DNA from: the human T2T-CHM13v2.0 reference genome, Homo sapiens
Assembly: GCF_009914755.1 (NCBI RefSeq)
Contig: NC_060947.1
DNA: 64,000 nt
Direction: 5' to 3' (one strand)
Shown: one piece after another, positions 56,701-60,391 of the stretch
How the letters are laid out: each line of letters starts with the position of its first letter
Numbering within the stretch: the stretch's first letter is position 1
The notes under the pieces: generated by a model
What the model was told of the DNA's origin: nothing
Seen by the model: only the letters and a program-made list of their open reading frames with translations
Database searches by the model: none
Program-made: the position numbers and the translations under genes

Positions 56701-57292
56701 GAATCTAGAAGGGATGAGTTTCACAGAATGTGTGAAGGATTGTGTCAACTAAAACTGAAGGAGGAAGTTACTGTGACCTCTGACAATACAGTTTTACTTT
56801 TTCTTCTAAATATACTATGTAACAAAGCAAATGTTGATAGTTTTCTTGCTAATATGAAAACTGAGATGCAGAAACATGATGTGTTGACAGGAATTGAAGA
56901 CACGTTTTTGCTGTAGTTAAATCCTAAAAGTGTGTCAACATTTTCATAGCCAGATTTTTCAGTGCATCACCAGATCACTTCTTTGCAAAAGTACTTGATG
57001 TTTTAAAAATAAAATTATCAATTTATTTCATAAGATGACTGCTCTAACAATGCCTTCATCCTCCTCAAGAAGAGCTTGTCTTTGCTACAAAACCTGTAGC
57101 CCAATGGCATAAGATTAAGATTCATGAAATGCTTCAATTAAAGCCAAATGTGTAACTACTTGATAAGTGCTTCTGTTAAGATTAGAACCCAGGTATCCAT
57201 AGTTCTAAACTGTGCTTTTTCTTCTGGGGTGTCTCTTAATATAAAACAAATTAAGAAGGAATTGACCATTGAGCTGAATGAATCCTGGCCTT

Positions 57293-57854
57293 TGTATTAA
57301 TCAGGGTTCTCTAGAGGGACAGAACTAATAGGATAGATGTATATATGAAAGGGAGTTTATTAAGGAGAATTGACTGACATGATCACAAGGTAAAGTCCCA
57401 TGATAGACTGTCTGCTGCAAGTTGAGGAGCAAGGAAGCCAGTGGTGGATCAGTCCAAGTCCCAAAACCTCAAAAGGAGGAAAGCGACAATGCAGCCTTCA
57501 GTCTGAGGCCAAAGGCCTGAGAGCCCCTGGCAAACCACTGGTGTAAGTCCAAGAGTCCAAAAGCTGAAGAACTTGGAATCTGATGTTTGAGGGCTGGAAG
57601 CATCCAGCAAGGGAGAAAGATGAAGGCCAGAAGACTCAGCAAGTCTACTCTTCCATCTTCTCCTGCCTGCTTTATTCTAGCCATACTGGCAGCTGATTAG
57701 ATAGTGCCCACCCAGATTGAAGTTATGTCTGTCTCCCCCAGTCCACTGACTCAAATGTTAATCTCCTTTGGCATCATGCTCACAGACACACCCAGAAACA
57801 ATATTTTGCATTCTTCAATGCGATCAAGTTGATACTCAATGTTAACCCATTACA
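57293..57854 (-). mobile_element. MLT2A2-like LTR (3' LTR of HERV-L)
   Basis: TGTATTAATCAGGGTTCTCTAGAGGGACAGAAC...CAAGTTGATACTCAATGTTAACCCATTACA; abuts polypurine tract (minus strand aaggggtggact). Confidence 0.92.
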
Positions 57855-58575
57855 AGTCCACCCCTTGCCAACTTGAACCTTTACATATCTCCTGAAATCA
57901 TATATAATCTTCAAATAAAGACAATAATAAGGTCATAATTATGCCTAACGTAATACAGCTACCCTTCACTAATCCTTAACCTAAAGTTAAAGTGCACTAA
58001 TCCTTAACCTAAATGCTATTACATCAAGTTAACAGCACTTAAATGCTGATATAAAGTCACTAAATCTTATGTCACATGATAAGGAAGAAGAAATGAAATA
58101 AAAAGATTTTTTTTTTCCAAGATGGAGTTTTGCTCCTGTTGCCCAGGCTGGAGTGCAGTGGTGCGATCTTGGCTCACCGTAACCTCCGCCTCCCAGGTTT
58201 AGGCAATTCTCCTGCCTCAGCCTCCCAAGTAGCTGAGATTACAGGTGTGTGGCACCATGCCCGGCTAATTTTTGCATTTTTAGTAGGGACAGGGTTTCAC
58301 CATATTGGTCACCATGTTGGTCAGGCTGGTCAGGCTCCTGACCTCAGGTGAACCACCTGCCCCAGCCTCCCAAAGTGCTGAGATTACAGGTGTGAGCCAC
58401 CACCTCCCGCCAAAAAGATATTTTCTTACTACAAGTGTATAAATGCACAAACATGTTCTTAACAAAATAAGGAGGAAATACTCGTGATAATTACAGTCCT
58501 AATTTCTGCAACTGGTCATGTGGTAGTAGCTGGTAATGATGACTACCTTCTTCTACTACCCATTCTGCATTCCTT
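57855..58575 (-). mobile_element. HERV-L internal 3' end, interrupted by an Alu
   Basis: agtccaccccttgccaacttgaacc; gcaactggtcatgtggtagtagctgg. Confidence 0.85.
58107..58411 (-). mobile_element. AluSq/Sp-like
   Basis: gagttttgctcctgttgccc; TSD aaaaagat on both sides. Confidence 0.9.
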
Positions 58576-59053
58576 TTTAAACATAATTTCTAATTCCAAA
58601 CTATATCTTTGTGAATGAATAAAACTGAAGGTTTTTTAAGAGCAACCTACTCAGCTCTTGAAAGTTTTGCTGCTTAGAAATTTCTTCGGCCAGATACCCT
58701 AAATCATCTCTCTCAAGTTCGAAGATCCACAGATCTCTAGGGCAGGGGAAAAATGCCACAAGTCTCTTTGCTAAAGCATAGTAAGACTCATCTTTGCTCC
58801 AGTTCCCAATAAGCTCCACATTTACATCTGAGACCACCTCAGCCTGGACTTCATTGTCCATATCACTATCAGCATTTTGGTCAAAAGCATTCAACAAGTC
58901 TCTTGTGGGAAGCTCTAAACCTTTCCACATCTTCCTGTCATCCCCTGAGTCCTCCAAACTGTTCCAATCTCTGCGTGTTACCCAGTTCCAAAGTTGCTTC
59001 CACATTTTGGGGTATCTTAATAGCAGTACCCCACTCTACTGGTACCAACTTAA
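58576..59053 (-). mobile_element. THE1 (MaLR) internal 5' end; contains the 134-aa ORF 58601-59005, a remnant of the MaLR internal ORF
   Basis: Minus strand begins t-aagttggtaccagtagagtgggg; translation WNSLEDS..DRKMW..LELP.RDLLN. Confidence 0.88.
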
Positions 59054-59431
59054 TGTATTTTCATACTGATAGGAGTCCATTTTCATACTGCTATAAAGAA
59101 ATACCCAAGACTGGGTAATTTATAAAGAAAAAGAGCTTTAATGGACTCACAGTTTCACATGGCTGGGGCGGCCTCACAATCATGGTGGAAGGTGAAGGAG
59201 AAGCAAAGACACATCTTGCATGACAGTGGGCAAGAGAGAGTGTGTAGGGGAACTCCCCTCTATAAAACCATCAGATCTCATGAGACTTTTTCACTATCAC
59301 GAGAACAGAAAGGGAAAAATCCATCCCTATGATTCAATTACCACCCACCAGGTCCCTCCCATGACACATGGAGATTATGGGAGCTACAATTCAAGATGAG
59401 ATTTGGATGGGTTCACAGCAAAACCATACTA
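59054..59431 (-). mobile_element. THE1C-like LTR (5' LTR)
   Basis: tgtatt..agtccattttcatactgct...gctacaattcaagatgagatttgg...aaaccatacta. Confidence 0.92.
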
Positions 59432-60391
59432 GCCTTCATTCTTTTCCAAATGGTTGATGTGGTATTTGGACTTTTGAGGGACTATGAAGTTTTAGTAAGC
59501 AATTCCTAACTTATCACGAACCAGGTTTCTTAAACCAATGACCTTTGATGTCACATACCTAAAATACAGAAAGATAGAATGAGAATATTGTCTTCCAAAT
59601 TTGCTTCTTTAGCTTGATAAGCTATAACTTGCAAGTTGAGAAGTGATACATTACTTAAAAACATTTATAAAATATGATATGTAAACATTTCTGCATAATT
59701 TTAATGGCTGTACCCCTACACACAAACCTATTTGAACCCAGTCAATACCTTTGCAGGGGTGAAGGGAATGTACATTATTTCAACAAACTAAAATAATAAA
59801 ATTCTTATTTTCTGATACTTCTGTTTCATGTAGGCACAATATGATAAATAGATTTTCAGTGCAAGGAAAGTTAAAGACACAGAATAGATGGAAATAAAGG
59901 AAGGCTAGAAGAATAAAAGGAAACAGAGAAGGTTGAGGCATTTTCTTGGTCTGTCTGACCTTCTACTTAGGTGGTCACTGGAAAAGGTCAAGTATTTTTC
60001 TCTAGATGAAAGTGAATCTGATTTAAATGGGAATATTGGATTTTTCAGATCACTGCAGAATGGCAATCATGCTATTTAAATGATTCATTTCTTTTGTTGA
60101 CTTCACTTTGTCTTCTAATCTTTATATACCTGAAAAGCAGAAGAAAGCTCCCAAGTAATAAAAGGAACTTCAAACACACCTAAGCCCTGTTCGTTTTTCT
60201 CTATCAGCTATAAACTTCACATTAACCCTAGCTGGCCAGCTCTCAAAAATGCTTTACCTTTTATAAGGAAGATTTGCAGGAAAGGAAAAATGTCTAGGTC
60301 TACTCTCTAGGTTTCCACTTACATGGAAAAAAAATGCAGAGGAGTCATTGTTTATAGAGGGGGCCCACAAGAGGAGTTAAGAAAAGGAGGC

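What the first reader, a model, noticed from the sequence alone, without database searches (positions are those of the whole stretch)
57288..59436. Provirus-shaped THE1/HERV-L chimera with two different complete LTRs under a single 5-bp TSD
Seen, reading the minus strand: complete THE1 5' LTR (59431-59054), ~480 bp of THE1 internal 5' end, an abrupt junction near 58570-58578 (ttccttttt), HERV-L internal 3' end with PPT, then a complete MLT2A 3' LTR (57854-57293). GCCTT lies immediately outside both ends (57288-57292 and 59432-59436). Established: ERVL and MaLR elements make 5-bp TSDs, reverse transcription normally yields two identical LTRs, and MaLRs are non-autonomous and thought to use ERVL enzymes. 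Inference: RT template switching would give two identical hybrid LTRs, and nested insertion plus deletion would leave non-matching flanks. A single integration using one end each of a THE1 cDNA and a HERV-L cDNA, later joined internally, fits better. That would be a fossil of HERV-L integrase mobilising THE1. A chance 5-mer match is roughly 1 in 1000 per locus.
Basis: partly seen in the sequence, partly recalled or inferred. Interest (0 to 1): 0.82.

Follow-up and report, generated by a model that had tools for sequence, protein, structure and literature searches.

The report
THE1/HERV-L hybrid element, one insertion
A 2.1-kb relic on human chromosome X has the front half of a THE1 element and the back half of a HERV-L retrovirus, framed by a single 5-base target duplication, so it probably entered the genome as one recombinant DNA copy made when the parasite and its presumed helper virus were copied together.

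Summary
On the minus strand: AAGGC | THE1-type LTR (59431-59067) | PBS and about 470 nt of THE1 internal sequence | crossover at 58577-58570 | about 410 nt of HERV-L-type 3' internal sequence (split by an Alu) with PPT | 562-nt MLT2-type LTR (57854-57293) | AAGGC.

Other genomic copies fix both termini, with 5-nt duplications directly outside them. A chance 5/5 match is about 1.3-1.5 in 1000.

New here:
- The crossover lies in an 8-nt block shared by both parents (chance 59 of 400,000).
- The junction was the only spanning match among the scored candidates.
- Both flanks matched only themselves in the assembly.
- The two halves carry similar private divergence (0.078 and 0.070).
- The two families share LTR ends, PBS start and PPT core.

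I put a single integration at about 0.65-0.7. One internal copy-choice switch plus a plus-strand transfer in trans, a published model, gives exactly two different complete LTRs (0.45). Joining of two cDNAs gets 0.2. Two independent insertions, a deletion and a chance 5-mer get 0.3.

No primate outgroup was available, so the decisive test was not run.

The parts
59432..59436 (-). Upstream copy of the 5-nt direct repeat (AAGGC on the minus strand, GCCTT on the plus strand)
   Evidence: Read. It lies directly outside the LTR start, where solo copies of this LTR type carry their duplication.
59067..59431 (-). Complete THE1-type 5' LTR, 365 nt. It starts TAGTATGG (other copies TGATATGG) and ends ...GGACTCCTATCA (other copies ...GGACTAATACA).
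   Evidence: 39 non-self copies at 85-88%; termini aligned with 29 LTR copies and 11 LTR-PBS junctions.
59049..59066 (-). LTR-PBS spacer with a 13-nt local insertion or duplication. Other copies have GTAAA here.
   Evidence: (repeat family D7).
59029..59048 (-). Primer binding site of the THE1 form (TTGGTACCAGTAGAGTGGGG)
   Evidence: the same form, with scattered substitutions, in 11 of 11 THE1-type copies. The HERV-L-type form differs by a 2-nt gap.
58578..59048 (-). 5' part of the THE1 internal region, 471 nt, colinear with full-length 2.3-kb copies
   Evidence: and (single alignments running from the LTR start into the internal region in L030-L038).
58570..58577 (-). Crossover block of 8 nt present in both parents (AAAGGGAA in most copies, AAAAGGAA here). 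Imperfect shared similarity continues to 58564.
   Evidence: 9 of 9 THE1 copies and 17 of 18 HERV-L rows; 32 THE1-type rows, most ending at query 52, and 7 HERV-L-type rows starting at query 38-39; for the chance level.
58412..58569 (-). HERV-L-type internal sequence, first piece
   Evidence: It corresponds to position 7718 onward of the full provirus L098.
58107..58411 (-). Later Alu insertion, sense on the minus strand, poly-A at 58116-58107. Its own duplication lies at about 58424-58412 and about 58110-58100.
   Evidence: In one search the HERV-L copies match both sides, with about 15-21 nt matched twice.
57855..58106 (-). HERV-L-type internal sequence, second piece, ending in the polypurine tract AAGGGGTGGA (57866-57857)
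   Evidence: (the same PPT region, with scattered substitutions, in 16 of 17 HERV-L rows; L013 is out of register).
57293..57854 (-). Complete MLT2-type 3' LTR, long form, 562 nt, TGTAAT...TTAATACA
   Evidence: 39 non-self copies at 86-90%; termini and duplications of 27 copies.
57288..57292 (-). Downstream copy of the 5-nt direct repeat (AAGGC on the minus strand)
   Evidence: It lies directly outside the LTR end.

Best explanation
The unit is one integration of a recombinant cDNA made inside a particle that held both a THE1 RNA and a HERV-L RNA.

Inferred course:
1. Minus-strand DNA started on the HERV-L RNA. It copied the HERV-L 3' LTR region, the PPT and about 410 nt of internal sequence.
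2. It then switched by copy-choice at the shared 8-nt block to the THE1 RNA and ran to the THE1 PBS.
3. A plus-strand strong-stop DNA made on a THE1 template annealed in trans to that PBS. This gave a complete THE1 5' LTR, while the 3' LTR stayed HERV-L.
4. One integrase complex inserted the molecule and made the AAGGC duplication.
5. An Alu and point mutations came later.

Shown: the anatomy, the termini, the 5-nt repeat, the microhomology, the lack of any other spanning match, similar divergence of the halves, and the shared cis signals of the two families.

Inferred: co-packaging, the order of RT steps, and that the flanks were once contiguous.

The confidence given (0.45) is for this specific mechanism. 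A single integration by any route gets about 0.65-0.7.
For: - Repeat position. The 5/5 repeat sits exactly at calibrated termini. Among solo copies, 12 of 27 MLT2-type and 8 of 29 THE1-type have perfect 5-nt repeats at these positions, and 8 and 13 more have 4/5. Chance is 1.3-1.5e-3.
- Flanks. Both flanks matched only themselves in the assembly and are unrelated to either element. One search compared one HERV-L provirus and two THE1 copies with the whole window and found no other HERV-L piece; the only other THE1 piece is a solo LTR 34 kb away.
- Crossover. It lies in an 8-nt block common to both parents, which occurred in 59 of 400,000 random junctions.
- Age. Private divergence is 0.078 over 829 nt for the THE1 half and 0.070 over 962 nt for the HERV-L half (non-CpG 0.0725 and 0.065).
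- Shared machinery signals. Both LTR types end in GACTAATACA and start TG..ATGGTT. The PBS starts TTGGTACCAG in 2 of 2 HERV-L and 9 of 11 THE1 copies; the other two carry one substitution. The PPT core is AGGGGTGGA. Both families favour C at duplication position 5 (11 of 21 and 11 of 20).
- PBS form. The PBS of the chimera is the THE1 form, as expected if the minus strand ended on THE1 RNA.
- Papers. The pathway is drawn in PMC5651808 (Discussion and Fig. 4 legend read). The families overlap in time: PMC11319637 (parts 1-2 of 3 read) places long MLT2 forms between the tarsier split and the simian ancestor, and PMC10735291 (abstract, outline headings, Discussion) places THE1 after that split.
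Against: - No outgroup locus could be examined, so it is not shown that the flanks were ever contiguous.
- In cell culture the second strand transfer is 'generally intramolecular' (PMC5651808, abstract).
- Non-homologous recombination is at least 1000-fold rarer than homologous recombination (PMC3187697, passages read).
- This is one locus, with no spanning progeny copy among the scored rows.
- The divergence estimates are noisy and uneven within the HERV-L half (0.054, 0.101 and 0.060 for its three segments). The THE1 LTR looked older (0.108) until its rearranged 3' end was removed.
- Comparators were the best-matching copies, not a random sample.
- Similar age is also expected for independent insertions, because both families were active in the same period.
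- An 8-nt microhomology fits DNA end-joining or a genomic deletion as well.
Confidence: 0.45

Rival explanations
1. Two independent insertions lay side by side in the same orientation, a THE1 element upstream and a HERV-L provirus downstream. A later genomic deletion guided by the 8-nt microhomology removed the THE1 3' half, the host spacer and most of HERV-L. The surviving outer 5-mers, one from each element's own duplication, are alike by chance.
For: - Deletions between short repeats are ordinary.
- A chance 5/5 match is not negligible across a genome: 1.3-1.5e-3, and 2 of 420 cross-family pairs of real duplications were identical. One THE1 solo LTR (L047) even carries AAGGC.
- Both families were active in the same period, so similar divergence does not exclude this reading.
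- Another HERV-L copy (L018) has an unrelated internal deletion ending 4-5 nt from the same site.
Against: - It needs a rare neighbour arrangement, a multi-kilobase deletion with both ends inside the elements, and a roughly 1-in-700 coincidence.
- No remnant of a spacer, a THE1 3' part or a HERV-L 5' part is left in the window (one HERV-L provirus and two THE1 copies as queries).
- My rough estimate of such neighbour pairs (about 20 genome-wide, few of them deleted) is reasoning, not a count.
Confidence: 0.3
2. Two separate cDNAs, one THE1 and one HERV-L, each contributed one end. Either one integrase complex inserted the U3 end of THE1 and the U5 end of HERV-L together and the free inner ends were later trimmed and joined by cellular end-joining, or two broken cDNAs were joined before integration.
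For: - It gives two complete, different LTRs under one duplication.
- The two LTR types have nearly the same termini, so one integrase could take both ends.
- An 8-nt microhomology fits microhomology-mediated end-joining.
Against: - By comparison with the full copies, it needs loss of about 1.5 kb from the THE1 cDNA and about 5.7 kb from the HERV-L cDNA before a join at an internal microhomology.
- It needs two finished cDNAs in one complex.
- I found no description of such an event in a germ line in the searches.
- Nothing in the sequence separates it from the RT route.
Confidence: 0.2

Closest known systems
First-generation provirus of a heterozygous virion after intermolecular second strand transfer (model for HIV-1 recombinants, Cappy et al. 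2017, PMC5651808)
   Same: There is one internal switch, so the 5' and 3' internal parts come from different RNAs. As I read that model, the 5' LTR comes wholly from one parent and the 3' LTR wholly from the other in the provirus made directly by the event.
   Different: That model was inferred from circulating HIV-1 sequences one generation later, between related strains with homologous crossovers. Here the product itself would be preserved, the partners are a non-coding element and a pol-carrying element, and the crossover is non-homologous (8 nt).
Mosaic or recombinant HERVs such as Harlequin and HERVS (Vargiu et al. 2016, PMC4724089, passages read; Kojima 2018, PMC5753468, passages read)
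   Same: Parts of two retroviral lineages lie in one provirus-shaped unit, attributed to cross-packaging and recombination.
   Different: Some of those are reported to have re-integrated after recombination. No THE1/HERV-L unit with two different LTRs under one duplication is mentioned in the passages I read. MaLR pieces in their chains were mostly judged secondary integrations or assembly artefacts.
Complex LTR-retrotransposon insertions made by abnormal template switching in grasses (Sabot and Schulman 2007, PMC1950507, part 1 of 2 read)
   Same: A flanking 5-nt duplication is used as the mark that a complex element entered in one integration after an RT switch between two RNAs.
   Different: Those have three LTRs and two internal regions of one family, with near-identical outer LTRs.
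Proviruses with unlike LTRs produced by recombination or deletion between neighbouring elements after integration (contrast case described in PMC1950507; HERV-K examples in PMC3625200, passages read)
   Same: The outer LTRs come from different insertion events or families.
   Different: Such products do not keep a matching duplication. This one has a 5/5 match.

Membership tests
THE1-type MaLR element (5' half) | LTR of about 350-365 nt with TG...CA ends, similar along its length to many genomic copies, with 5-nt duplications directly outside | tested here: met
   39 non-self copies at 85-88%; 21 of 29 copies with 4/5 or 5/5 flank repeats.
THE1-type MaLR element (5' half) | LTR followed by a spacer, a PBS and an internal region colinear with 2.3-kb full-length copies | tested here: met
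   one alignment covering 59428-58570 against positions 1-839 of full copies; PBS. The comparator THE1 copies were not scanned for coding domains.
THE1-type MaLR element (5' half) | Assignment to a named subfamily (THE1A-D) by a curated repeat library | not testable with these tools
No Dfam or Repbase library is on hand.
HERV-L / ERV-L with MLT2 LTR (3' half) | 3' internal sequence, PPT and LTR colinear with proviruses that encode reverse transcriptase and integrase | tested here: met
   58577-58415 and 58115-57293 against L098 provirus positions 5747-6699; RVT_1 at E 4.8e-16 and rve at E 7.7e-08 in L098. dUTPase was not detected in the broken frames tested.
   No repeat library is on hand. 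The LTR is the long form (562 nt). Some comparators lack 57552-57443. Zhang and Frith 2024 (PMC11319637) report that long forms of 550-554 bp are annotated inconsistently as MLT2A2 or MLT2B3.
Single retroviral integration | Matching target duplication of the family's length directly outside both ends | tested here: met
Single retroviral integration | The two LTRs identical at insertion | tested here: not met
   The LTRs belong to different families. This is the anomaly itself.
Single retroviral integration | Empty site with one copy of the target in species that diverged earlier, and the same unit in all species that diverged later | not testable with these tools
   No primate or other mammalian genome is held besides this assembly. 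Both flanks matched only themselves, so no paralogous empty site exists.
Product of internal copy-choice plus plus-strand transfer in trans | Odd number of internal crossovers, PBS and 5' LTR from one parent, PPT and 3' LTR from the other, and neither LTR a hybrid | tested here: met
   There is one crossover, the PBS is the THE1 form, the PPT is the HERV-L form, and each LTR aligns end to end with its own family only.
Product of internal copy-choice plus plus-strand transfer in trans | Direct evidence that the join was made by RT and not by DNA repair | not testable with these tools
   Microhomology fits both.

The most novel reading that the evidence does not exclude
This locus is a preserved first-generation product of a particle that packaged a non-autonomous THE1 RNA together with a HERV-L genomic RNA. 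That would make it physical evidence that HERV-L particles, reverse transcriptase and integrase handled THE1. It would also be a natural example of plus-strand transfer in trans giving a provirus with two different LTRs.
Probability: 0.45. Interest if true: 0.75.

Novelty: new variant of a known kind. Interest (0 to 1): 0.58.

Why it matters
MaLR elements such as THE1 make up about 4% of the human genome (PMC10735291). The literature says they were mobilised by ERV-L (PMC11319637, citing Smit 1993 and Franke 2017). As far as I recall, that rests on sequence likeness and not on any direct link.

A unit that joins the two in one integration would be a physical link, because both RNAs would have been in one particle. 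It would also show in a germ-line fossil the two-different-LTR provirus that a current model of reverse transcription predicts but that is lost after one further round of replication.

The claim can be settled cheaply with existing primate alignments. The comparison made here is useful on its own: both families share LTR ends, the PBS start, the PPT core and a preference for C at the last duplication position.

Tried and rejected
- Nested insertion plus deletion. Rejected, because neither flank is THE1 or HERV-L sequence.
- Paralogous empty site or old repeat spanning the insertion. Both flanks gave only themselves even at E 10, so the test gave nothing.
- Progeny or sister copies of the chimera. 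Junction queries of 210 nt and 81 nt found only self spanning the join among 40 scored rows each, out of 1356 and 608 first-look candidates. Unscored candidates are not excluded.
- Age discordance as a refutation. The first estimate made the THE1 LTR look older (0.108 against 0.062). This traced to 8 of 30 private positions lying in the rearranged last 20 nt. After trimming the halves agree (wrongly included a self locus, which one search corrected).
- 5' LTRs of proviruses carrying our exact LTR subtype. None was found within 8-9 kb upstream of the 3' LTRs in L091 and L092. The PBS was taken from two other proviruses instead.
- A recombination hot spot at the crossover. L018 has a deletion end 4-5 nt away, but that junction is also unique and has only about 1 nt of overlap, so nothing can be concluded.
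- Composition profile and the repeat scan. These added only the small tandem duplication near the THE1 LTR end.
- Searches found no paper describing a THE1/HERV-L unit with two different LTRs. Subscription journals are not covered.
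Full report
**What is there**

Reading the minus strand of window 57288-59436, the order is as follows.
- AAGGC (59436-59432).
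- A THE1-type LTR starting TAGTATGG at 59431.
- A PBS, TTGGTACCAGTAGAGTGGGG (59048-59029).
- THE1 internal sequence down to 58578.
- HERV-L-type internal sequence from 58577, interrupted by an Alu (58411-58107, with its own duplication).
- The polypurine tract AAGGGGTGGA (57866-57857).
- An MLT2-type LTR of 562 nt (57854-57293, TGTAAT...TTAATACA).
- AAGGC again (57292-57288).

The window's own assembly could be searched, so every part was checked against other genomic copies. Each search scored 40 rows, 39 of them non-self.

| Part | Identity to non-self copies | First-look candidates | Match limits |
|---|---|---|---|
| MLT2-type LTR | 86-90% | 5155 | most match query 8-562 |
| HERV-L internal, piece next to the LTR | 82-86% | 969 | most 2-253 |
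| HERV-L internal, piece next to the junction | 89-93% | 1356 | starts at query 63-74, mostly 64 = 58577 |
| THE1 internal part | 83-88% | 4796 | 34 rows end at 477-491 (58577-58563); 5 end at 434-435 |
| THE1 LTR | 85-88% | 7755 | most 18-372 |

- In other HERV-L copies the two internal pieces are contiguous apart from the 15-21 nt that the Alu duplicated.
- A full comparator provirus (L098, 6.7 kb between LTR ends) carries RVT_1 (E 4.8e-16) and rve (E 7.7e-08).
- Our HERV-L part corresponds to the last 953 nt of that provirus. Our THE1 part corresponds to the first 839 nt of 2.3-kb full-length THE1 copies.

**Termini and the 5-nt repeat**

I aligned 27 MLT2-type and 29 THE1-type LTR copies with their flanks.
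- The duplication is 5 nt long and lies directly outside TG...CA in both families.
- MLT2-type copies: 12 of 27 perfect, 8 of 27 with 4/5.
- THE1-type copies: 8 of 29 perfect, 13 of 29 with 4/5.
- The rest are proviral LTRs, script mislocations or unclear cases.

Our two AAGGC copies sit exactly at those positions.

Positions 59066-59049 are the LTR-PBS spacer with a 13-nt local insertion.

The chance of a 5/5 match was estimated three ways.
- 1.34e-3 from position-specific base frequencies of real duplications.
- 94 of 61,851 for 5-mers at this spacing in the window.
- 2 of 420 cross-family pairs of real duplications were identical.

**The junction**

- THE1 copies read ...GTTTAAAAGGGAA|GCAGAGC... 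(9 of 9).
- HERV-L copies read ...GAAGGC|AAAGGGAATACAGAATGGG... (17 of 18 rows, which are 17 distinct loci less one; L018 has its own deletion).
- Our element reads GTTTAAAAAGGAATGCAGAATGGG.

The crossover therefore lies in an 8-nt block common to both parents (58577-58570), with imperfect similarity on to 58564.

An 81-nt junction query gave 32 THE1-type rows, most ending at query 52, and 7 HERV-L-type rows starting at query 38-39. Only self spanned the join.

In 400,000 simulated random junctions between comparator THE1 and HERV-L internal sequences, 59 had 8 nt or more of microhomology. The join was therefore guided by homology. By itself this does not say whether RT or DNA repair made it.

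**What is excluded**

- Both flanks (59432-59830 and 56890-57292) matched only themselves in the assembly, even at E 10. Neither matches THE1 or HERV-L comparators.
- So neither element is nested in the other.
- A comparison of one HERV-L provirus and two THE1 copies with the whole 64-kb window found no other HERV-L piece. The only other THE1 piece is a solo LTR at 22880-23232.
- Because the flanks have no other match, no paralogous empty site exists. The contiguity of the flanks could not be tested here.

**Age of the two halves**

I estimated the private (terminal-branch) divergence of our copy from pairwise K2P distances, using the three-point formula. The comparators were the best-matching copies.

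| Segment | Private divergence |
|---|---|
| THE1 LTR (59431-59074) | 0.077 |
| THE1 internal | 0.078 |
| HERV-L internal, piece A | 0.054 |
| HERV-L internal, piece B | 0.101 |
| MLT2-type LTR | 0.060 |
| THE1 half pooled (829 nt) | 0.078 (non-CpG 0.0725) |
| HERV-L half pooled (962 nt) | 0.070 (non-CpG 0.065) |

The bootstrap ranges overlap.

An earlier run made the THE1 LTR look older (0.108). Of its 30 private positions, 8 lay in the rearranged last 20 nt. One run included a self locus by mistake and was redone.

The ages are compatible with one event. The comparator copies of both families have similar medians (0.062-0.069), so independent insertions in the same epoch are not excluded.

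Papers agree on the overlap in time. Long MLT2 forms were mostly inserted between the tarsier split and the simian ancestor (PMC11319637, parts 1-2 read). The THE1 family arose after the Simiiformes-Tarsiiformes split (PMC10735291, abstract, section headings and Discussion read).

**Shared cis signals**

- Both LTR types end in GACTAATACA and start TG(A/T)(T/G)ATGGTT.
- The PBS is TTGGTACCAGGAGTGG... in 2 of 2 HERV-L 5' LTR junctions and TTGGTACCAGTAGAGTGGGG, with scattered substitutions, in 11 of 11 THE1 copies.
- The PPT core AGGGGTGGA recurs, with scattered substitutions, upstream of the 3' LTRs in 16 of 17 HERV-L rows (L013 is out of register) and in 8 THE1 rows.
- Both families favour C at the last duplication position (11 of 20 and 11 of 21).

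These points fit one reverse transcriptase, one primer tRNA and one integrase serving both families. They make integration of a molecule with one end of each kind unproblematic.

**Mechanism**

That holds only if the plus-strand transfer is intramolecular.

Cappy et al. 2017 (PMC5651808, Discussion and Fig. 4B legend read) draw a different pathway. Minus-strand synthesis finishes on the other RNA, and the plus-strand strong-stop DNA made on that other RNA is used. They state that the U3/R breakpoint appears only in the next generation. I take this to mean that the provirus made directly by the event has its 5' LTR from one parent and its 3' LTR from the other.

Applied here, the course would be:
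1. HERV-L minus strand.
2. Copy-choice switch at AAAGGGAA to the THE1 RNA.
3. End at the THE1 PBS.
4. THE1 plus-strand strong-stop DNA anneals in trans.

This yields exactly the observed order, with a THE1-form PBS and a HERV-L-form PPT.

Against this route:
- The second transfer is generally intramolecular in culture (same paper, abstract).
- Non-homologous recombination is at least 1000-fold rarer than homologous recombination (PMC3187697, passages read).

By comparison with the full copies, it needs about 1.5 kb and about 5.7 kb to be lost from two free ends before a join at an internal microhomology.

**Weighing**

The chance reading needs three things: a THE1 and a HERV-L side by side in the same orientation, a multi-kilobase deletion with both ends inside them, and a coincidence of about 1 in 700.

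My rough reckoning (reasoning, not a count) is that few such deleted pairs exist genome-wide, so a matched one is unlikely. The rate of true recombinants is just as uncertain.

| Reading | Probability |
|---|---|
| Single integration, any route | 0.65-0.7 |
| RT route | 0.45 |
| Joining of two cDNAs | 0.2 |
| Chance 5-mer after deletion | 0.3 |
| Other | remainder |

**Novelty and literature**

Mosaic HERVs and cross-packaging are known (PMC4724089, passages read). A flanking duplication has been used before as the mark of single integration of complex elements (PMC1950507, part 1 read).

I found no description of a THE1/HERV-L unit with two different LTRs under one duplication in the searches. 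These cover open-access papers and preprints only, and supplements were not opened.

The finding is a new variant of a known kind. It is moderately interesting and can be settled with primate alignments that were not available here.

Noticed in passing
L018 (G000:C2:182884171-182887411), junction near locus position 1345: A HERV-L copy with its own 1.3-kb internal deletion (L098 positions 6385 to 7723). The 3' breakpoint lies 4-5 nt from the crossover of the chimera. The junction is unique in the genome and has only about 1 nt of overlap. It may be a coincidence or a break-prone site.
   Followed up: partly
window 22880-23232 (minus strand): A THE1-like solo LTR, 74-81% identical to the LTRs of two full-length comparators. 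It is the only other THE1 or HERV-L piece in the 64-kb window.
   Followed up: no
window 58107-58411, duplications at about 58412-58424 and 58100-58110: An Alu, sense on the minus strand, inserted into the HERV-L internal part after the chimera formed. It has a duplication of about 13 nt and a 10-nt poly-A.
   Followed up: partly
window 59049-59093: A local tandem duplication or 13-nt insertion at the THE1 LTR/PBS boundary (GTATGAAAAT occurs twice). It inflated the first age estimate of the LTR.
   Followed up: yes
Loci L002-L008, L040-L048 and L051-L090 (flanks of solo LTRs): Both LTR families show C at the fifth position of the target duplication in about half of the copies (11 of 20 MLT2-type, 11 of 21 THE1-type). 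This hints at a shared target preference.
   Followed up: partly
L047 (G000:C13:74373960-74377322): An unrelated THE1-type solo LTR carries the same AAGGC duplication, a reminder that 5-mer coincidences occur.
   Followed up: no
window 57443-57552, and loci L020, L021, L025, L027, L097, L099: Several HERV-L proviruses whose internal sequence is closest to ours carry a shorter LTR that lacks about 110 nt present in ours. The closest full-length LTR matches are solo LTRs. This fits the long and short MLT2 forms described by Zhang and Frith 2024.
   Followed up: partly
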